The position numbers were made by a program, and so were the translations under genes. The notes under the pieces are model-generated. The model made no database searches, was not told the origin of the DNA, and was given only the letters and a program-made list of their open reading frames with translations. Below, piece after piece: positions 44,778 through 60,868 of a stretch of 64,000 nt of DNA (position 1 is its first letter; each line of letters opens with the position of its first letter). This DNA comes from an uncultured Chlamydiae bacterium (GTDB lineage Bacteria > Chlamydiota > Chlamydiia > Chlamydiales > Parachlamydiaceae), in the NCBI GenBank assembly GCA_963830365.1, contig CAWHMU010000036.1:1-64000 (forward strand). Reading direction: 5' to 3'.

Positions 44778-44799
44778 TTATAGCTCCTTTAGGATCAAC

Positions 44800-44904
44800 A
44801 TGGACGGCATGGACTAAATGGACTAACATGGACTATATGGACAAAGCATACATTTTAGTTGTCCATACTGTCCATAGTTTGTCCATATAGTCCATGTTGT
44901 CCAT
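44800..44904. repeat. Palindromic array 2: 5 ATGGAC units facing 5 GTCCAT units
   Basis: Direct reading. Confidence 0.95.
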
Positions 44905-44908
44905 TTTC

Positions 44909-45481
44909 TCAAGGGCCCCGTTTTGGACTTTGGGCTGCCTTTCGTGTGTGATAAAGGCGTTCGGTGAAACCGCCTTCGCGTTGGAAAGCTTCGGCTTGTG
45001 CCGCAAGCTGTCGGTTAAGAAGTGTGCAAGCCACGGAAATCAGCACCAGCATGGCATTAGCCGCAATTTCTGGCAGGTTGAGTTGATTCTCATGCGCCTG
45101 CTGCTTTACCCATAGGGCAAACTGATCGGCTGTGGTAAAGCGTTGCCTGATCACTTCTTGGCGGCGCGGTTCGGCAAAAGCCCAGATATTCAGCTGGTGT
45201 TGGCGCAAAAAATCTTCGCAATCGAGTTTTAGTTCTTCAAGACTGGCGCGGGCCACATTCGTGAGTTTGAGCTCGGTCTTTTTGGATGTGCCGGAGGCTT
45301 GGCTGCCTTCAGCGATATTTTGCACGCCCGAACGGGCGGCCTGTACCATCTGGTCGTGGGTGCGGCTGCGCGCGCCGACAAAGCGGTCGCAGAACCGAAT
45401 CGTGATATCAAATACAAGGCGGGACAGCTGAAAGGTTTTGAGTTCGCGATAGCCCCCATGCTGGGGAATCAGCTTTTCCAT
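44909..45481 (-). CDS. Four-helix-bundle protein (TIGR02436-like) with suffix domain (TIGR04258-like)
   Basis: GGYRELK, DQMVQAARSGVQNIAEGS, ARASLEELKLD, EGGFTERLY. Confidence 0.9.
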   Translation of the reverse strand: MEKLIPQHGGYRELKTFQLSRLVFDITIRFCDRFVGARSRTHDQMVQAARSGVQNIAEGSQASGTSKKTELKLTNVARASLEELKLDCEDFLRQHQLNIWAFAEPRRQEVIRQRFTTADQFALWVKQQAHENQLNLPEIAANAMLVLISVACTLLNRQLAAQAEAFQREGGFTERLYHTRKAAQSPKRGP

Positions 45482-45546: not shown

Positions 45547-45650
45547 ATGGACAGCATGGACTATATGGACTACATGGACTACATGGACAACAAAAACGTC
45601 CATAGTTTGTCCATATAGTCCATATAGTCCATGTAGTCCATACTGTCCAT
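45547..45650. repeat. Palindromic array 3: 5 ATGGAC units facing 6 GTCCAT units
   Basis: Direct reading. Confidence 0.95.
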
Positions 45651-50334: not shown

Positions 50335-52518
50335 TTACTCCTGTTGTTCGCTCGTTACCAGTGCATGGTAGAGGGGGCAATGCTCCATTAGCCTGGCATG
50401 TGTGCCTTTGGCGATGATCTTGCCTAGGTCCAGCACAATGATTTCATCGCAATCGCGGATGCTGCTTAAGCGATGGGCGATCAAAAGCATGGCACTGCCG
50501 CTGTTGCGCAGATGCTGCATGATGGCATGCTCGGTAAAGGCATCAAGGGAATTGGTGCCTTCATCGAGGATCAGAATGGCAGGCTGCTTTAAGCCGGCTC
50601 TGGCAATCTCCAGGCGCTGCCGTTCCCCGCCGCTCAAATTGGCGCCATTCTCTTCAAGCATAAGCTCATAGCCGCCGGGTCTTGACATGATGGTGTCGTG
50701 CAGGCAGGCGCATTTAGCGGCCGCTATGACAGGCGGCAAAGGTATCGTTGGGTCAAGAAAGGTGAGGTTGTCTTTGATGCTGGCAGTGAAAATGAAGGGA
50801 TCGCTTTCGACCAGAGCCATGCTGTTGACAAATAGTTCGCGGGGTATAGCCTGCTGGCTTTTGCCGTCGAATAGCACTTCCCCTTCCCAAGGATGCAACA
50901 GTCCGGCGATAATCCTTGCCAGCGTCGATTTGCCGCTGCCAGAGGGGCCGACGAGTGCCACGCTTTTGCCGGCAGCCAGTGTCAATGAGATATCTTTGAG
51001 CATCGGTTCGTCGCAGCGGCTGTAGCCGAAAGTCACGTGGCGAATGTCGACCGCGCCGCTCAGTTTACTTGTCTGCTGAGGCCGTGCTTCCGGCGGTTTG
51101 AAGACGCTGTCGATGGGATAGCGCATCAGGTCATCCAGCCGCGCCATATCGACCTTTAGAAATTGCAGGCTCTGGTTCACGCCGGCCAGGCTGACCACGG
51201 GTTGGATCAGGCTGAACAGTAAAATCTGCACGGCGATGAACATCCCCACGGTCAGTTGACCATCGATGACGCGCCAACCGCCGACCGCGATGAAGATAAA
51301 GTAAGTCAAAGCTTGCAATAGCTGCGTGCATATGGTCAGGAAGATGTCCTTGCGCCCCACTGCCTGCAGCGCATTCAATAGTCTGGTATAATATGCCGCC
51401 CAGGTCTGGAAAAAGCGCCGTGTTGAGCCGCCGGCTTTTAGCATTTCTATATTTTCCAGCCCGCCGATGGCATAGGCAGTGCTGCGGGCTGAGTCCGACT
51501 GATAGCGTGCATACATGTCTGAGCGGGAGCTATAGACGCATTGCATCAGCAGGAGGTTGGCGGCCATCACCGACATAGCCACCAGGGCGATGGTATAATC
51601 GTAATAGAGGATCGCCACACCATAGCTGAAGGCAAACAGCACGCTTAAGACCAGCGTGATGACATCGTCGGCCAGGGCATGGTTGATCGATTCATTGAGA
51701 GTTAGGCGGTAGGCCACTTCACCTGGATAACGCTGCAGGTAAAATTCCATCGGCAGCCTAAGCATATGCCATAATGTCTCGCTGCCCAAAGCGACCGACA
51801 GGCGCGTTTTTAAGCGGTTGATGGCCTTGCCTTGCAGGAATATCAGCAACCCTTTGACAGCCATCACCAACAGCAATCCGGCCAGGATGCCGTTTTTCCA
51901 GTCCAGGTTTTGCGCTACCAGCACCCGGTCGATAAACACCTGCGTCAAGGCGGGAAAGGCCAAATTCGGCACGACCAGGCATAGGCCGATCAGGGCGGCA
52001 AAAAGTAGCGCGGCCTTGACGTTTTTCAGTCTATTGTAGATGGCCTCGATCACCCCTGGCGGCCGGCCGCTTTTTTTGAACTGCGTTCCGGGCTGCAGGG
52101 TGATGGCGATGCCGGTAAAGTCGCTGTCGAGCTCATCGTAGCTGATGCTGCGCGGCCCCGTGGCTGGATCGTTGAGGTATACATGCTTTTTGTCGAAACC
52201 TTCAAGGACCACAAAGTGTTCGAATTTCCAGAACAGGATGGCCGGCAGCGGCAGCTGATAGAGATCTTCCACCTCCAGACTGTAGCCGTCGGCCTGCAGC
52301 TGATAGCCTTCGGCGGCCTCGACGATATTTTTGGCGTTGCTGCCGTCGCGCGAGATGCCGCAGGCGATGCGCAGCTGTTCTATGGATAAAAATTTGCCAA
52401 AATGCGCCAAGATGATGGCTAGGCAGACGGCGCCGCATTCGGTGGCTTCGATCTGGATGCGTGTCGGCGTGCGCACGCGCCGGTAGGCGCTTGGCCGCGG
52501 GATGATATTCTCATTCAT
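50335..52518 (-). CDS. NHLM-type ABC transporter with C39 peptidase domain (TIGR03796-like)
   Basis: VRTPTRIQIEATECGA (catalytic Cys), EHFVVLEG (His), LNDPATG (Asp), SRDGS, GPSGSGKS, LSGGERQR. Confidence 0.93.
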   Translation of the reverse strand: MNENIIPRPSAYRRVRTPTRIQIEATECGAVCLAIILAHFGKFLSIEQLRIACGISRDGSNAKNIVEAAEGYQLQADGYSLEVEDLYQLPLPAILFWKFEHFVVLEGFDKKHVYLNDPATGPRSISYDELDSDFTGIAITLQPGTQFKKSGRPPGVIEAIYNRLKNVKAALLFAALIGLCLVVPNLAFPALTQVFIDRVLVAQNLDWKNGILAGLLLVMAVKGLLIFLQGKAINRLKTRLSVALGSETLWHMLRLPMEFYLQRYPGEVAYRLTLNESINHALADDVITLVLSVLFAFSYGVAILYYDYTIALVAMSVMAANLLLMQCVYSSRSDMYARYQSDSARSTAYAIGGLENIEMLKAGGSTRRFFQTWAAYYTRLLNALQAVGRKDIFLTICTQLLQALTYFIFIAVGGWRVIDGQLTVGMFIAVQILLFSLIQPVVSLAGVNQSLQFLKVDMARLDDLMRYPIDSVFKPPEARPQQTSKLSGAVDIRHVTFGYSRCDEPMLKDISLTLAAGKSVALVGPSGSGKSTLARIIAGLLHPWEGEVLFDGKSQQAIPRELFVNSMALVESDPFIFTASIKDNLTFLDPTIPLPPVIAAAKCACLHDTIMSRPGGYELMLEENGANLSGGERQRLEIARAGLKQPAILILDEGTNSLDAFTEHAIMQHLRNSGSAMLLIAHRLSSIRDCDEIIVLDLGKIIAKGTHARLMEHCPLYHALVTSEQQE

Positions 52519-53431
52519 CTTTCACACTCTCGAGTTTCAAACTCTCCAGTGGCAGCATGTAATAGAGCGGCCGGATGCGGTGGATGGTCGCCTGGACTGT
52601 GCCGACGGTACCGGTTGTCAGGGGGGATGGCAGGGACTTGCCCGATGTCAGGCGATAGTCATGGGTATGCGGATCGATATCCAGCTCGATGGTAGCTTCA
52701 ATCACGGCCTCATCGCCAGGCGCCAGATATTCCACCAGTTCCTTATTGTAGATCTGCTTTTCCAGGCCGGCTTGGGGGATGGCAAAGCCCGATACCTCGC
52801 TGACTTTTCCCTGCAGGTAGCCGTATTCTTGGGTATCAATGGTGGAAACGGCGACGTAGGCGGCAGTCCCCACGGCCAGGCGCTTTCCCTGTGCTAACGG
52901 GAAATAGGCGTAGACGCGGTATGGGGCGTGGCCTGCATTGCTGTATTCCAGCCATACCACCGGGCTGCCGGGCGTCAGTGTCTCCCCTTCGCCGGCCAGT
53001 AGTTCCAATACCTTGCCGTCGATGGGACTTGTGAGCCGATGCAGCGGCATTTGCCGTTCGGGATCGGCCATCTCGGCCATCAGCTGGCCGGCTTTAACCT
53101 CTTGGCCGGGTTTGACGGTGATATTTTGCATGAGACCACCGACGGGCGTGTTTATGGTCAGCAGGCGTCCCTTTTGGTTCATGACGATCCCCCTGCCGTG
53201 TACGGTGACGGGCAGGGAGCCAAAAACAGACCATCCGATGAGACCGCCAAGCAGCATGATCAGGCATAGCAGCGCAATCCACATGCGAGGAGTCACTACC
53301 ACAAGCAGGGCGTCCAGCTGCACAGGATGGGAAAGGCGTTCCAAAGGTCCTGGCCGAAATAGGGACGAAGCTGTTCCTGCGGCCTCTTCGGATGTGGGGC
53401 CGGGGGGTGATTTTTCGGTCATTGTGAGCAT
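52511..53431 (-). CDS. NHLM-type secretion adaptor (TIGR03794-like), short form
   Basis: LFRPGPLERLSHPVQLDALL, TM helix, GRGIV, SPIDGKV, QEYGYLQGKVSEVS. Confidence 0.87.
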   Translation of the reverse strand: MLTMTEKSPPGPTSEEAAGTASSLFRPGPLERLSHPVQLDALLVVVTPRMWIALLCLIMLLGGLIGWSVFGSLPVTVHGRGIVMNQKGRLLTINTPVGGLMQNITVKPGQEVKAGQLMAEMADPERQMPLHRLTSPIDGKVLELLAGEGETLTPGSPVVWLEYSNAGHAPYRVYAYFPLAQGKRLAVGTAAYVAVSTIDTQEYGYLQGKVSEVSGFAIPQAGLEKQIYNKELVEYLAPGDEAVIEATIELDIDPHTHDYRLTSGKSLPSPLTTGTVGTVQATIHRIRPLYYMLPLESLKLESVKDE

Positions 53432-53459: not shown

Positions 53460-53630
53460 TCACCCCTTTGTCGGCGTCTGCGCAGGCGAGGTCTCCCGCG
53501 TGGCAGGCAACTTCGGCTTGCTTTGGCGGGCAGGGGGTTTTGGGGGGCCGTATGTATTCCTGGTAGGATATCCCCCTACCACTTGCAATAGTTGAGCTTT
53601 GGTCAGCGGCTGTTTTTGTTTTTTAGGCAT
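53460..53630 (-). CDS. Double-glycine leader precursor peptide A (56 aa; not in ORF track)
   Basis: GGAGG RBS; MPKKQKQPLTKAQLLQVVGG|YPTRNTYGPPKPPARQSKPKLPATRETSPAQTPTKG*. Confidence 0.85.
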   Translation of the reverse strand: MPKKQKQPLTKAQLLQVVGGYPTRNTYGPPKPPARQSKPKLPATRETSPAQTPTKG

Positions 53631-53732
53631 ATATCCTCCAAGCTTAAGTTCATCAACTGGGCCTATACTGGAATATACAAGATGTTTTATTATAATATAT
53701 ATAATTTTAAAAAAGCAGGCGATTTTGGACTT

Positions 53733-53915
53733 TTAAATAACCGGTCGAGGAATGGGATGGTTGTTTAGGAGGTTTTTGGGATTTAGCGATGACGATCCGA
53801 GAGGAATGCCGTAGGAAGGATTGGGTTGATGGGGCGAACGGGTCGGCGAGCATGCTCCCCCTTTGACATACATCAGTTGTTTTTTGGTCAGCGGCGGCTT
53901 TTCATCGTTAAACAT
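53733..53915 (-). CDS. Double-glycine leader precursor peptide B (60 aa)
   Basis: GGAGAG RBS; MFNDEKPPLTKKQLMYVKGG|ACSPTRSPHQPNPSYGIPLGSSSLNPKNLLNNHPIPRPVI*. Confidence 0.85.
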   Translation of the reverse strand: MFNDEKPPLTKKQLMYVKGGACSPTRSPHQPNPSYGIPLGSSSLNPKNLLNNHPIPRPVI

Positions 53916-53995
53916 GCAAGCTCTCCAGCTAAAATTAACAGAGGCCGTTGCCACTTAATTATATAGTAAAGTTATTTATTTAACTAATGTTTGTA

Positions 53996-54157
53996 TATAC
54001 CACACGCGGCTACGTTTGGCATTTTTCGGCTGCGCCAAAGCCCCGAGGTTTAACAATCGAAAGTGACCCAATATTCCAATATGGGGTCACTTTCGATCGT
54101 TAAACCTCGGGACTTTCGCGTTGCCGAAAATCGCCAAACCTAGCCGCGTGTGGTATA
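53996..54157. mobile_element. 162-bp TATAC-ended near-perfect palindrome
   Basis: tataccacacgcggcta.gtttggc...cccgaggtttaac.atcgaaagtgaccc / gggtcactttcgat.gttaaacctcggg...gccaaac.tagccgcgtgtggtata. Confidence 0.85.
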
Positions 54158-54177: not shown

Positions 54178-55398
54178 TTACTTATTGATGATGACGATGA
54201 CGGTGCATAGGGTGCCGGTGGGAAGGTCGGGCGGCGGCAGGGAGCTCATCCAATAGCCGGGTGTCCACCATTTCTTGGACCACTTATAGCCCTTGGTGAC
54301 TGGATCGATATCGGGATCGATGACGGCTTCGATGACGGCTTTATCCCCTGGGACGAGGAGGTTGACGAGTTCTTTGTTATAAAGGATTTTGGTGATGCTA
54401 TCGCGCGAGACGGGATAATCGGTGACTTCGGCCACTTTGCCCAGCAGCACGCCGTAGTATTTAGTGTCGGCCGAATAGACCACCATGACGGCCCTTTGCC
54501 CGACGACGACGTGCTTGTTCTGTTCCATAGGCAGGTAGGCATAGATGCGGTCGGGAGCATTTTTCTCGCTACGCCCTTCCATCAAGAGTAAATTGGAGCC
54601 GCGTTTGACGATTTCCCCTTCGTTGGCCATCAGTTCAAGCACACGTCCATCCCAGGGGCTCTTCACTTTGTAATATTTCGCTTGCTGCTCAAGCAGTCTT
54701 TTCAGTTCCAGGTTTTGGGTGAGGTCGCGCTCTTTATTCTTCAGCTCCTCCGAACGGTAGCCTTTAAGCAGGTTGAAATGCAGGTTGGCAATTGACACCT
54801 GGGTGGTTTCTCTTTCGATTTTAGCGGACGACAATTTGTCTTCGGCATCGCGTACGACGGCAGGGCTGATCAGCCCAAGCTCGAATAAATGCTTACGCCG
54901 GGTCACCTCAGCTTCCAGATCGGGGATTTTTTTGTTCAGCAGCTGGACATTGAATTTTTTGGCCAGCATCTCTCTTTTAAGGGCCTTTAGCTGTGCCGCT
55001 CCTTCCTGGCTGATGTCATGCTTAAACTTCTCTAAATCAAGTGTCAAATTCTCCACTTTCAGCTTGGCAGCCGACAGCTTGATTTCGTAGTCGTGATCTA
55101 AAATATCAACCACCAGCTGGTCTTCTTTGACCTCGTCCCCCGGGCTGACGAAAATTTTTTTAACAATCCCGTCCACTCTGGTATTGATGGTGAAAAGCCG
55201 CCCCTTGGCATTCAGGATAATGCCTTTGCCCACGACTTTCTCCGGCTGGAAATAATCATCAATCTCGTAGTAGGCAAGGCTTGTCAGGCAGACCAGGATG
55301 ATGACGATCCACATCTTAGGGGAAAGGCGCTGATAAAATCTTTTTTTGGGGGGCTCAAATGCCGGCTGCTGGGCTGGAGATGGGGGATTTGTTGTCAT
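54178..55398 (-). CDS. Second NHLM/HlyD-type secretion adaptor, full-length coiled coil
   Basis: TM helix, GKGII..KGRLFTINT, long heptad region, SPWDGRVLEL, YYGVLLGKVAEV; clear paralogue of 52511-53431. Confidence 0.87.
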   Translation of the reverse strand: MTTNPPSPAQQPAFEPPKKRFYQRLSPKMWIVIILVCLTSLAYYEIDDYFQPEKVVGKGIILNAKGRLFTINTRVDGIVKKIFVSPGDEVKEDQLVVDILDHDYEIKLSAAKLKVENLTLDLEKFKHDISQEGAAQLKALKREMLAKKFNVQLLNKKIPDLEAEVTRRKHLFELGLISPAVVRDAEDKLSSAKIERETTQVSIANLHFNLLKGYRSEELKNKERDLTQNLELKRLLEQQAKYYKVKSPWDGRVLELMANEGEIVKRGSNLLLMEGRSEKNAPDRIYAYLPMEQNKHVVVGQRAVMVVYSADTKYYGVLLGKVAEVTDYPVSRDSITKILYNKELVNLLVPGDKAVIEAVIDPDIDPVTKGYKWSKKWWTPGYWMSSLPPPDLPTGTLCTVIVIINK

Positions 55399-55440: not shown

Positions 55441-57375
55441 CTAATCACAACTCTCTGCTACATTTTCTGGCCGTCCTGAGCCTATCTCCGGCAGCGAGGT
55501 GATATCCATGACTTCAATGCAATCGCTATTTTCCCCCTGCCAGAATAGTGTAGCGGTCAGAAAACGGATCTGGCCGATGTTCTGCATGTACTTTTTACGG
55601 AAATCGTTGCGCTGCAACAGGGACGTGGTCAGGTTTTCTTCAAAACTCAGCAGATCAAAGAGGGAAATGAAGCCCGCCTGCAGTTTGACGACGCCTTCGG
55701 CAAACAATAAGCGGTTTAGGCGCACATTTTGTTCGGCTTCCTTTAATTGGGCAGATAGCACGATTTGACTAGATAGGGCTGCAGGTAAGATCGTGAGGGC
55801 TTGCTGCATCAACAGCTGCGTGGACAGGATGGCTTGGGCATATTGCGCCTTCCTTTGCTGCAGCACGCCCATCGCGCCGTCGTTATACAGCGGCATGGCG
55901 ATATTGATGCCAAGCGACCAATTTGTTTGACGCTGATGCATCTCAAGGGGCGAAAGCAAGGGTTTGCCGGCTTCGCCAGTTTCAAAATTCGGCATGGTGA
56001 CTTGGCCTGTGACATTGAGTGTGGGCAGACGGTCGTTATTGGCGCCTTTTAACAGGAAATATATTTGCTTTTGGCGCAAGGTAGAGGCTTGGATGTCATA
56101 GCGGTGCCTGATCGAGTATTCAAGTAAATATGGGAATTGAGTTTGGAACCACTCGACATCGAGCGGTGGCAGCGGGAAGTCATCGGTTAAATATAAAACC
56201 TCATCCTTAAAGTCTGTCACTGAGACATCGCCCATGACAAATTCCAATTGTTGGATGGTGGAAAAAAGAAATTGCTGCGCCTCCAGCAGGCTGATTTGCT
56301 GCTTGACGATCTTCTGCTGGGGCTGGTGGATGTCAGTGCGGGCCAGCAATGAATTTTTGATCAGTTGCTTGATATTTTCGGTTAGTTCCCTCAGGCGTCT
56401 CAAACCCTCTTCCTGGATGCCAACGGCTTTTTGGGCAGCTACGGCTTCCCAATAGGCCGTGGTGGTGCTGAAGATGTTTTGGCTGACAGCATGGAAGTCG
56501 TCATAGTACCTGGCATAAAGTTCCATGCGGGCGGCTTTTTCCTGCATCCAATTTACACCGTTTAAAAAGCCGCGCAACAGCGGTTGCTGTACCAAAAAGG
56601 AAACCGAGCCGACATTGTTGTTTACTGTTGCCGGTGAATTGAGGGGGTTATGCAGCCTGTCGACCTGGGCGCTGACGGCAAAGGCCGTGCCTGGACGGGT
56701 GAGGGTGGTGGCGGAGAGGGTGGCAAGCGTTTCATTTCCATTGAGCTTTGTTTTTATAGGCACCGAGGCTCTTTGCAAATCGTCTTGGAAGAGATAGGTA
56801 TTGGTGCCGACGACATTATAATCGAAGGGGGAGGCCGCGCTGCGCAATACGCCGGCTTGCACGTTGATGCTGAGTTGTGAAATTTCCAGCGAAATCTGGT
56901 TCTCAAGTGCATATACAAGCGCTTCATTGAGCGAGAATGGCCGTCCTTTGGGATCTGTGCCGGGCATCATGATGAATGGTGTGTGCGGAAGTTCGGCTTC
57001 AAGTTCGGCTACCGTCAAGTCAGAAAGGTCTGGGAGGGCATCGTTTTCCTTTTCGAGGACTTCGAGGGAGTGGAGAAACTGTTTGCCAAGCAAAGGGTTT
57101 TTTGGCGGCACATCAGCCTGTTTTTTTGGCTGTGCCTGTGCCGGGGATGGAGGCGCAACCTTGCCCTCTTCCCGCATGAGATAGGCTACGAGTTCATCAT
57201 CTTCGGCAGACGCACCGAGCGTATGACTGGCAGCCGGCATCTCGGCAGGGGGTGCTAATACCCCGCTTGCCATAGCTTGAGCCGAAGGCGCAAGCTTATC
57301 ACTAACGGCAGTAGTTTCGGCCGCGGCCAGCTGATTGAGGGCAATAAATGTCAAAATGCAAAGCAGGGGTCTCAT
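55441..57375 (-). CDS. TolC-family outer-membrane efflux protein
   Basis: Signal peptide, SLNEALVYALENQ, VQQPLLRGF, AYWE, LPTLNV, IAMPLYN, AGFISLFDLL. Confidence 0.88.
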   Translation of the reverse strand: MRPLLCILTFIALNQLAAAETTAVSDKLAPSAQAMASGVLAPPAEMPAASHTLGASAEDDELVAYLMREEGKVAPPSPAQAQPKKQADVPPKNPLLGKQFLHSLEVLEKENDALPDLSDLTVAELEAELPHTPFIMMPGTDPKGRPFSLNEALVYALENQISLEISQLSINVQAGVLRSAASPFDYNVVGTNTYLFQDDLQRASVPIKTKLNGNETLATLSATTLTRPGTAFAVSAQVDRLHNPLNSPATVNNNVGSVSFLVQQPLLRGFLNGVNWMQEKAARMELYARYYDDFHAVSQNIFSTTTAYWEAVAAQKAVGIQEEGLRRLRELTENIKQLIKNSLLARTDIHQPQQKIVKQQISLLEAQQFLFSTIQQLEFVMGDVSVTDFKDEVLYLTDDFPLPPLDVEWFQTQFPYLLEYSIRHRYDIQASTLRQKQIYFLLKGANNDRLPTLNVTGQVTMPNFETGEAGKPLLSPLEMHQRQTNWSLGINIAMPLYNDGAMGVLQQRKAQYAQAILSTQLLMQQALTILPAALSSQIVLSAQLKEAEQNVRLNRLLFAEGVVKLQAGFISLFDLLSFEENLTTSLLQRNDFRKKYMQNIGQIRFLTATLFWQGENSDCIEVMDITSLPEIGSGRPENVAESCD

Positions 57376-57483
57376 GTATAGTATAACCAACAAGTTGCCG
57401 GATAGAAATAGTCCAGGGCTTAAATGTAAGTCAAATCTATACTTGAGAAATCAGAAGGTTTCAAGTTTTTTTTTGCCTGCCGG

Positions 57484-59697: not shown

Positions 59698-59783
59698 CGC
59701 AGTTGTTCATCCTGACCATCCTAAAATCCTGTTATTTCTTATTTTTCTTATGAGAATACCGTTGGACGATTTGTAAATCTTTT

Positions 59784-60330
59784 GGTTCATCGCACAATTG
59801 CGTGCCTCCCCATATGTAAACTAATGGAGGATGTTAAATAAATCATACATAATGGCAAATTGCGCGTTCGATCCTGTGAAGGAAGGATTTGAGTTGGCAC
59901 TGCCATACAAGAGATAGGGCACAAGCCATGAGAACATTTTTACAGCCTCGATAGAGGCGGAAGCATGTAGCCACATGCGTCAGCGTGTGGTAATCGCATG
60001 TTTAGAAACAAAGCCGTGAATACGGCGGCAGCAATGACTAAAGGATAGTATATACTATAATAATTGCATCTAATTCAGCTTCCATCGAAATTGCTGTCGC
60101 CGTATTCACGGCTCTCTTTATACTACATTTTATTCCATAGGTTGACACCTATGGCTACATGCTTCCGCCTCTATCGAGGCTAACTAGACCTTCTGTGCTA
60201 GAATGCCGATTTGTTTCAAAGAGAACCTACAAATAGATCATTACTTCTCATATTTCAACCAGCAATTACTAAGGCTTTTTGACGAATCATCGGCGGTATT
60301 TTTGCAACTCCCTCATTTGTGCGATGAACC
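59784..60330. mobile_element. MITE with 8-bp TSD aatctttt carrying nested REP-like inverted repeats
   Basis: ggttcatcgcacaa / ttgtgcgatgaacc; aatctttt at 59776-59783 and 60331-60338. Confidence 0.88.
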
Positions 60331-60423
60331 AATCTTTTTCATAAAAATAGGCTGGTTGGTTTTATCCTGTTTGTAAAAAACAAAGTATATTATAATAAAA
60401 CAAGAGATACGGCAGGAGGTTTT

Positions 60424-60555
60424 ATGAAGAAAATAGACAAAAAACCGCTGACTAAAACACAACTGGCACAGGTCGCCGCCGCCCGCAGGGAAAGTCCGAG
60501 TTTGGATAAACGTTATACCGATGAATCCGGCGGCAGAAGAATCATTAAAAGGTAG
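60424..60555 (+). CDS. Precursor-like peptide C (43 aa; not in ORF track), same leader but ending AA
   Basis: AGGAGG RBS; MKKIDKKPLTKTQLAQVAAA|RRESPSLDKRYTDESGGRRIIKR*. Confidence 0.75.
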   Translation: MKKIDKKPLTKTQLAQVAAARRESPSLDKRYTDESGGRRIIKR

Positions 60556-60561
60556 GCTATT

Positions 60562-60724
60562 TATACTGCAGCCGGCATCAACATTCGATTTATGGACGCA
60601 TCTTTTCTCGCCGAAATGTCGTTTCAAAAGCGAGCCTACAAATATGTATGTCACGCTTTCGAAACGACATTTCGGCGAAAAAATCTACATCCATAAATCG
60701 AATGTTGATGCCGGCTGCAGTATA
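60562..60724. mobile_element. Near-perfect palindromic element flanked by TA, inserted in a terminator
   Basis: TA-tactgcagccggcatcaacattcgatttatgga ... tccataaatcgaatgttgatgccggctgcagta-TA. Confidence 0.85.
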
Positions 60725-60868
60725 ACAGTAAATAGCCTTTTTTATTCTCTGTGTCTCTGTATCTCTGTGGTGAATTTCTTTGCCTGCCACAATGATCAAG
60801 TCTGATTTTTCATTTATAACGGCAACCATTTTTGAATTCGGGTACGGGCTCCCATTGAGCCTGTGTTG

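What the first reader, a model, noticed from the sequence alone, without database searches (positions are those of the whole stretch)
53460..53915. Two tandem precursors with register-exact leaders and unrelated Pro-rich cationic cores
Seen: leaders MPKKQKQPLTKAQLLQVVGG and MFNDEKPPLTKKQLMYVKGG share K6, P8-L9-T10-K11, Q13-L14, V17, G19-G20, i.e. L(-12), L(-7), V(-4), GG of the C39 recognition consensus, but with a basic TKxQL in place of the usual acidic SxxEL. Core A (36 aa) has 9 Pro, 7 K/R and 1 acidic residue; core B (40 aa) has 9 Pro and no acidic residue. Inference: the composition and the HPIPRPVI end of B recall insect proline-rich ribosome-targeting peptides (drosocin/apidaecin class); PKPPAR in A fits the class II SH3 ligand PxxPxR. 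Both functional ideas are speculative.
Basis: partly seen in the sequence, partly recalled or inferred. Interest (0 to 1): 0.85.

Follow-up and report, generated by a model that had tools for sequence, protein, structure and literature searches.

The report
Chlamydial secreted peptides with swappable cores
Two small genes inside a peptide-export operon of an environmental chlamydia carry the same cleavable export tag on unrelated cargo peptides; they likely belong to an undescribed, fast-changing set of secreted chlamydial peptides, and the proposed likeness to insect ribosome-blocking antibiotics is not supported.

Summary
Precursors A and B share 11 of 20 leader residues in register, and identity falls to chance at the Gly-Gly. 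They lie inside a TolC-HlyD-[B,A]-HlyD-C39/ABC-ABC operon (NHLP-type cassette) of an environmental chlamydia, the genome's only C39 exporter. Two more genes carry this leader (window 60424; contig C28) on non-Pro-rich cores. Short Gly-Gly precursors sit beside the same cassette in 10 of 39 chlamydial genomes fetched; none of 19 cores from other genomes is both Pro-rich and cationic, and one core pair is under purifying selection across genera. The basic leader is tolerated by the closest solved protease (LahT). The drosocin and SH3 ideas fail: B lacks the penultimate Arg, has 22.5% Pro and net +3; both motifs arise in 9-15% of shuffles. A second assembly reads B two bases shorter, giving a valid Gly-Ser leader and a different core, so B's Pro-rich frame is itself uncertain. 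Best reading: unmodified, fast-turnover secreted peptides, likely for competition. Seven literature searches found no description in chlamydiae; this scan noted similar tailoring-free Gly-Gly precursors in other genomes.

The parts
53460..53630 (-). Precursor A, 56 aa: 20-aa double-glycine leader (53571-53630) plus 36-aa Pro/Thr/Lys-rich core (53463-53570); GGAGG ribosome-binding site upstream
   Evidence: called as a gene in NCBI/ENA, a cluster of one; no family hit
53733..53915 (-). Precursor B, 60 aa: 20-aa leader (53856-53915) plus 40-aa Pro/Ser/Asn-rich core (53736-53855); GGAG upstream
   Evidence: this exact protein is not in the 15-billion collection
53707..53853 (-). Alternative-frame core of B (48 aa, 5 Pro, net +6). 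A second assembly joins it to leader B through a Gly-Ser end (protein P0001)
53857..53861 (-). Run of five G (coding strand) in the Gly-Gly codons of B; two bases shorter in the version that gives P0001
   Evidence: inferred from the protein; that contig's DNA was not seen
53689..53694 (-). TATAAT box upstream of A, within a 17-nt stretch shared with the upstream region of precursor C
   Evidence: (pair I4)
53958..53963 (-). TATAAT box upstream of B
53996..54157 (.). 162-nt palindromic repeat between long HlyD and B; a genome-wide repeat (9 loci), not precursor-specific
54178..55398 (-). Long HlyD-type adaptor, 406 aa (TIGR03794 120.8 bits, under the 156.2 cut-off)
55441..57393 (-). TolC-type outer-membrane factor (start codon uncertain)
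   Evidence: PF02321, TIGR01844
52511..53431 (-). Short HlyD-type adaptor, 306 aa (TIGR03794 176.8 bits, over cut-off)
50335..52518 (-). Peptidase C39-ABC transporter, 727 aa (TIGR03796 867.5 bits, over 853.3); catalytic Gln, Cys, His and Asp align with LahT150; the only C39 found in the genome
48112..50331 (-). Peptidase-less partner ABC transporter, 739 aa (TIGR03797 708.1 bits, just under 709.4)
60424..60555 (+). Precursor C, 43 aa: same 20-aa leader type ending Ala-Ala, 23-aa charged core with 1 Pro; GGAGG site and TATAAT box (60391-60396); flanked by genome-wide repeats. A fourth gene, D (52 aa, two Cys), lies outside the window at G000:C28:14257-14415, minus strand

Best explanation
A and B are small genes with double-glycine export leaders inside a chlamydial peptidase-ABC/HlyD/TolC operon; the leaders are predicted to be cut after Gly-Gly and the unmodified, floppy cores likely secreted as members of a fast-turnover peptide repertoire, most likely used against competing microbes. 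Steps: (1) shown: four genes in this genome share a 20-aa leader on unrelated cores, and one C39 exporter is found. (2) Inferred from LahT: the leader helix docks L-12, L-7 and V-4 in the protease groove and is cut after position 20. (3) Inferred: the ABC pair, one or both HlyD adaptors and TolC move the core across both membranes in one step, into the inclusion, the host cytoplasm or the medium. (4) Inferred: no dedicated tailoring, as no RiPP enzyme flanks the genes. (5) Inferred: new members arise by copying promoter plus leader in front of new DNA and by frame changes at the cleavage site; selection keeps the leader and only some cores. Export and cleavage about 0.8; antagonistic role, given export, about 0.45 (signalling and host effects are rivals).
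For: Operon anatomy and family scores. Catalytic residues intact; LahT150 is the best PDB match and its specificity residues are those kept in the leaders (L/V/I at -12 in 21 of 21, L/M at -7 in 21 of 21; these positions were part of the search pattern, so this is not independent). DNA identity among the four genes is 32-42 of 60 nt in leaders and 15-19 of 60 just after. TATAAT lies within 70 nt upstream of 4 of 4 genes versus 116 of 846 long ORFs with equally AT-rich upstream DNA. The strict motif hits 3 places in 2.73 Mb, all short ORFs with a ribosome-binding site. Short Gly-Gly ORFs flank the cassette in 11 of 44 loci (10 of 39 genomes), often in arrays. The two closest transporters (SH-aLRT 99, quick tree) also have short precursors, with unrelated cores. 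One core pair from two genera keeps 16 of 37 residues, 10 of them with different codons, third positions least conserved. No YcaO in the genome; no RiPP tailoring family among 42 neighbouring proteins scanned, apart from GNAT acetyltransferases and one weak PqqD hit. The microcin V exporter accepts cargo of any composition (PMC10231218, abstract).
Against: No expression or activity data. No orthologue of core A or B was found, so selection on these two cores is untested. No immunity gene beside A, B, C or D, which antibacterial microcins normally have. 33 of 44 loci showed no short precursor in the stretch fetched (many end at contig edges; pattern-limited). C ends in Ala-Ala, not a canonical dipeptide. 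The genome is 82% complete, so a distant tailoring enzyme is possible; the LanC search had no positive control and seven radical-SAM genes were not examined. B's frame is uncertain.
Confidence: 0.62

Rival explanations
1. The exported cores are signals between chlamydial cells (density or developmental cues) rather than weapons.
For: No immunity genes; short unmodified cores; double-glycine exporters also carry quorum peptides (PMC6363468, passages); D gives a weak hit to the EntF induction-factor model (E 0.083, far below cut-off); one core is conserved across genera.
Against: No receptor kinase or regulator next to the operon; four unrelated cores in one genome and arrays elsewhere look like diversification, not one shared signal.
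Confidence: 0.17
2. The cores are host-directed mini-effectors: disordered peptides whose Pro motifs bind host SH3/WW-type domains after export into the host cell.
For: Obligate intracellular lineage (OmcB-like protein, three nucleotide transporters); no immunity gene needed; PxxPxR is present in A.
Against: PxxPxR occurs in 15% of shuffles of A and some SH3-type motif in 52%; absent from the other 20 cores tested; type I export would not by itself cross an inclusion membrane (established knowledge).
Confidence: 0.12
3. A and/or B are bacterial proline-rich ribosome inhibitors convergent with drosocin/apidaecin.
For: A meets the two compositional criteria of the PrAMP definition (25% Pro, net +6) and B has one PRP near its end.
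Against: Type II PrAMPs need a penultimate Arg (PMC11549390, passages); B ends R-P-V-I and A ends T-K-G. B has 22.5% Pro and 5% Arg. PRP arises in 9% of shuffles. No PrAMP hit among PDB sequences of 20 residues or more (shorter PrAMP chains are not in that library). A second assembly gives B a different core, and codon usage leans about 6 to 1 to that frame.
Confidence: 0.07
4. A and B are young or decaying copies: leader and promoter are real, but these two cores are unselected read-through of C-rich DNA with no function.
For: No homologues; all three frames of core A stay open for 36-40 codons and all frames of both cores are Pro-enriched; synonymous codon scores of the cores do not single out the annotated frame; the frame variant of B exists.
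Against: Both leaders, ribosome-binding sites and TATAAT boxes are intact despite 30% leader DNA divergence, which suggests lasting selection for expression; B in the window frame ends with a Pro-Ile like 5 other chlamydial cores (post hoc).
Confidence: 0.2

Closest known systems
NHLP/N11P three-gene export cassette TIGR03794/TIGR03796/TIGR03797 (Haft et al. 2010, PMC2887384, passages read)
   Same: Same HlyD + C39-ABC + peptidase-less ABC cassette; leader conserved by the transporter, cores variable, paralogous precursors.
   Different: Leaders are 15-20 aa with no NHLP or Nif11 domain; no YcaO or LanM beside them; two HlyD adaptors and a dedicated TolC; host is an obligate intracellular chlamydia. 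True NHLP + YcaO clusters do occur in other chlamydiae (L041).
Class IIa microcins and bacteroidetocins (PMC12219008, passages read)
   Same: Small unmodified precursor, double-glycine signal, PCAT + membrane-fusion protein + TolC in a Gram-negative cell; sequence-diverse cores.
   Different: Cores here are 23-40 aa, under the 5-10 kDa range; no adjacent membrane immunity protein; NHLP-type two-ABC exporter; no activity shown; that paper has no mention of chlamydiae.
LahT / LahT150 double-glycine protease (PDB 6MPZ; PMC6363468, passages read)
   Same: Closest solved homologue of the C39 domain (E 3.8e-39); reads L-12, L-7, V-4; tolerant at -8 and -5.
   Different: LahT substrates have acidic leaders (nearly invariant Glu-5); here Gln-8 and Lys-rich flanks.
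Proline-rich antimicrobial peptides, drosocin/apidaecin (PMC7736402, PMC11549390, passages read)
   Same: Pro-rich, net cationic composition of A; one PRP in B.
   Different: No penultimate Arg; low Arg; B below 25% Pro; animal precursors; trait not shared by the chlamydial family.

Membership tests
Double-glycine leader substrates of C39 exporters | Hydrophobic residues at -12, -7, -4 and G-G/G-A/G-S at -2/-1 | tested here: met
   A, B and D: L, L, V, GG; P0001: GS; C ends AA (non-canonical)
Double-glycine leader substrates of C39 exporters | Catalytically intact C39-ABC transporter in the genome | tested here: met
   Gln, Cys, His, Asp align with LahT150; single C39, 940 nt from A
Double-glycine leader substrates of C39 exporters | Cleavage and export shown | not testable with these tools
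   needs biochemistry
NHLP/N11P RiPP systems | Three-gene cassette TIGR03794/03796/03797 | tested here: met
   176.8/156.2, 867.5/853.3, 708.1/709.4 bits (score/cut-off; the last just under)
NHLP/N11P RiPP systems | Long NHLP or Nif11 leader domain in the precursor | tested here: not met
   20-aa leaders, no family hit; no TIGR03793 match in the genome (its controls did not ring, but the model scores a chlamydial NHLP)
NHLP/N11P RiPP systems | Tailoring enzyme (YcaO cyclodehydratase or LanM) | tested here: inconclusive
   None among the flanking genes; YcaO not found genome-wide with working controls; LanC not found but no control rang; genome 82% complete
Class II microcins | Small precursor with double-glycine signal plus PCAT, membrane-fusion protein and TolC | tested here: met
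Class II microcins | Adjacent small membrane immunity protein | tested here: not met
   Gaps around A and B are 28, 102 and 262 nt (the last mostly a repeat); C is flanked by repeats; D abuts a convergent gene
Class II microcins | Antibacterial activity | not testable with these tools
   needs assay
Proline-rich antimicrobial peptides | At least 25% Pro and net charge at least +1 | tested here: inconclusive
   A 25%, +6 (met); B 22.5%, +3 (Pro not met); C and D not met
Proline-rich antimicrobial peptides (type II) | C-terminal pharmacophore with penultimate Arg | tested here: not met
   B ends R-P-V-I, A ends T-K-G
Proline-rich antimicrobial peptides | Antimicrobial action on the 70S ribosome or DnaK | not testable with these tools
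   needs assay (definition)
   Present in A; 15% of shuffles have it

The most novel reading that the evidence does not exclude
Environmental chlamydiae run a phylum-wide, undescribed microcin-like arsenal: an NHLP-type exporter stripped of tailoring enzymes secretes unmodified peptides that are created by copying a promoter-leader module in front of new DNA and by frame-switching in the G-run that encodes the cleavage site (one leader, two cores), and these peptides are what lets chlamydial symbionts suppress co-infecting bacteria inside protist hosts, a defence whose mechanism was stated to be unknown (PMC6520448, passages).
Probability: 0.15. Interest if true: 0.8.

Novelty: new variant of a known kind. 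Interest (0 to 1): 0.42.

Why it matters
Chlamydiae are known for type III effectors, and their biosynthetic clusters have been noted only in bulk ('RiPP-like', functions unknown; PMC9666466, passages). A concrete list of about 25 small secreted-peptide candidates from about a dozen chlamydial genomes, short enough to synthesise, makes the question of how these symbionts compete inside hosts directly testable. The frame variant of B hints at a simple way to generate new cargo.

Tried and rejected
Family scans of A, B, C: no hit in NCBIfam or Pfam; D only weak sub-threshold bacteriocin-leader hits. PDB sequence search of the cores: only chance-level hits. Orthologue hunts: the leader pattern in metagenome contigs gave 88 stretches, none a chlamydial orthologue; most are chance matches, two or three look like true Gly-Gly precursors of other taxa (L167, L190, L214), showing that TKxQL leaders are not unique. 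Protein searches with B and with the four-gene profile returned only this organism's proteins and P0001. Genome-contig scan with the transporter gave 5 distant loci. Sequencing runs: none was listed, so no reads could be laid; no evidence either way. The ESM Atlas gave no result for A or B. Promoter scanner listed no full sigma-70 site for the precursors. Palindromes near B, C and D are genome-wide repeats (9, 5 and 83 loci), so a precursor-specific mobile element was rejected. The profile search of 61 genomes mostly re-found its training set (16 matches, 3 new), so it is not independent evidence of co-occurrence. A Pro-Ile dipeptide in the last 9 residues of 6 of 23 cores (0.85 expected) was noticed post hoc and does not survive correction for 400 dipeptides once the homologous pair is collapsed; kept as a lead only. 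No structure or complex prediction was run: cores are compositionally disordered and leader-protease binding would pass by likeness to 6MPZ. The transporter tree is the quick version; the careful search did not finish.

Full report
Observation. They share 11 of 20 leader residues and 42 of 60 leader bases; the next 60 bases share 16. Random pairs of short-ORF N-termini never gave 10 or 11 matches in 500,000 draws. Core A is 25% Pro, net +6; core B is 22.5% Pro, net +3, with one Cys.

Organism. The window is the first 64 kb of contig C36 of a 2.73-Mb, 82% complete genome. An OmcB-like cysteine-rich protein (PF03504, E 5.5e-7, under cut-off, 0 of 14 controls) and three ATP/ADP translocases mark it as a chlamydia; its large family of 1.5-3.7 Mb genomes points to an environmental lineage (inference).

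Setting. On the minus strand the order is TolC, long HlyD, B, A, short HlyD, C39-ABC, peptidase-less ABC. Scores place the cassette with the NHLP export system of PMC2887384 (passages): TIGR03796 and the short HlyD pass their cut-offs, TIGR03797 misses by 1.3 bits, the long HlyD is under. It holds the only C39 domain found in the genome. Its best PDB match is LahT150 (E 3.8e-39), with catalytic Gln, Cys, His and Asp aligned. In LahT, L-12, L-7 and V-4 carry recognition while Glu-8 and Glu-5 can become Lys, Ala or Asp (PMC6363468, passages). The basic leader is therefore a tolerated variant, not a new code.

More members. A still looser pattern gave 32 rows for 18 ORFs; I judged the other 14 to be chance by eye. 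C has a 23-aa charged core with one Pro, D a 32-aa neutral core with two Cys. All four have TATAAT within 70 nt upstream, against 126 of 1,511 long ORFs (116 of 846 when equally AT-rich); A and C share a 17-nt stretch around it. A, B and C have GGAG/GGAGG sites. A and D are called as genes in public sources; B in the window frame and C are not in the collection. No immunity gene or RiPP enzyme flanks any of them; YcaO was not found genome-wide, the LanC search was uninformative and seven radical-SAM genes elsewhere were not examined.

Relatives. The cassette is patchy in the order: TIGR03796 over cut-off in 10 of 61 genomes, TIGR03794 at E 1e-30 or better in 35 of 400. I fetched 44 loci from 39 other genomes. 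Short Gly-Gly ORFs lay beside the cassette in 11 loci (10 genomes), singly or in arrays of three to five; long NHLP-type precursors in 3 loci, one with a YcaO cyclodehydratase. I dropped pattern hits in L040, L046, L053, L107, L113 and L115 as chance; many loci end at contig edges, so the count is a floor. A profile search added three dispersed genes, two in cassette-bearing genomes and one in a genome where none passed cut-off. Of 19 cores from other genomes (two duplicates left out; the pattern clipped one residue from some), one has 20% Pro or more, the median is 6%, and none is both Pro-rich and cationic. Cores range from Gly-rich to acidic to Lys-rich. One pair from two genera keeps 16 of 37 residues, 10 with changed codons, with position identities 23, 20 and 14 of 37: purifying selection on at least one core, although the two transporters lie in different clades. 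The window's transporter groups with two other short-precursor loci (53% identity at best, SH-aLRT 99, quick tree), and short precursors are scattered over the tree. Among 42 neighbouring proteins scanned (chosen from short-precursor loci and a few others) none was a RiPP tailoring family, apart from GNAT acetyltransferases and one weak PqqD hit.

The frame variant. The only outside hit to B is P0001, from one Logan contig of 2,885 bases. It is leader B ending Gly-Ser followed by the 48-aa ORF that lies in another frame over core B; a G-run two bases shorter reproduces it exactly. Gly-Ser is a valid end for these leaders. Synonymous codon use leans about 6 to 1 toward that frame (weak), while the C-terminal Pro-Ile shared with five other cores leans, post hoc, toward the window frame. 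Either one assembly is wrong or two alleles exist; no reads were available to decide. In both cases the 'drosocin-like' end of B is not a secure feature.

Functional ideas tested. The PrAMP definition asks for 25% Pro, net positive charge and proven action on the ribosome or DnaK (PMC7736402, passages); type II members depend on a penultimate Arg (PMC11549390, passages). A passes the composition test only, B fails the Pro cut, and neither has the Arg. PRP appears in 9% of shuffles of B and PxxPxR in 15% of shuffles of A. The cores are C-rich and Pro-enriched in all frames. PDB searches gave nothing.

Mechanism. The most likely picture is a leader-defined, cargo-blind type I route, as shown for microcin V (PMC10231218, abstract): the C39 domain binds and cuts the leader, and the ABC pair, HlyD and TolC release an unmodified core. 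The repertoire appears to be renewed by copying promoter and leader and by frame changes. What the cores do is not shown. Diversity, arrays and patchy distribution fit competition best; absence of immunity genes fits signalling, host targets or targets the producer lacks; A and B may also be unselected newcomers.

Known or new. It works like class IIa microcin or bacteroidetocin export (PMC12219008, passages) on an NHLP cassette, but fails membership of NHLP RiPPs (no NHLP domain) and of class II microcins (no immunity gene, shorter cores, no activity shown). Seven literature searches listed no paper describing double-glycine peptides in chlamydiae; PMC9666466 (passages) reports only 'RiPP-like' clusters in bulk, and its supplementary table of clusters was not read and may list such cassettes. 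The library lacks most subscription journals. This scan has no notes on this genome; the eight notes listed from other genomes include similar tailoring-free Gly-Gly precursors at NHLP cassettes (unchecked), which suggests the architecture is common and the new part is the chlamydial family. Verdict: real, new variant of a known kind, interest 0.42.

Noticed in passing
window 52511-53431 and 54178-55398; L042, L043, L047, L050, L092, L096, L098, L111: Two HlyD-type adaptors per cassette recur in chlamydial loci; here one is about 100 residues shorter than the other. Whether they form mixed or alternative channels is unknown.
   Followed up: no
window 53996-54157, 59780-60291, 60561-60725; also 44798-44908 and 45547-45650: Several families of palindromic, MITE-like repeats fill intergenic spaces; the element upstream of precursor C has about 83 loci in the genome, the others 9 and 5.
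   Followed up: partly
L041:12153-14768 (G043): A chlamydial genome with a true NHLP precursor and a YcaO cyclodehydratase (TIGR03793, TIGR03604 over cut-off) next to the cassette: a complete azole-peptide cluster in a chlamydia.
   Followed up: partly
L046:12654-15973 (G046): Five tandem ORFs of 201-223 aa with NHLP-like leaders, at least three ending in Gly-Gly, with Gly/Ser/Glu-rich tails, divergent from the cassette.
   Followed up: no
L039:12671-12832 and L044:16019-16174: Homologous 37-aa cores in two genera with a purifying-selection signature; best candidates for a conserved function.
   Followed up: partly
L042, L050, L092, L094, L096, L098: cNMP-binding proteins, two with an Rce1-like protease domain, sit beside the cassette in several chlamydiae.
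   Followed up: no
L049 (G031:C31) and L052 (G031:C12): Both cassettes of this genome appear split into pieces by stops or frameshifts.
   Followed up: no
L053:4605-5756 (G000:C28): A RING-H2 finger protein with a Pro-rich N-terminus, a eukaryote-like candidate effector, lies 2.5 kb from precursor D.
   Followed up: no
window 44909-45481: Four-helix-bundle (23S rRNA IVP-like, TIGR04258) gene flanked by short repeats, between a S9 peptidase and UvrD.
   Followed up: no
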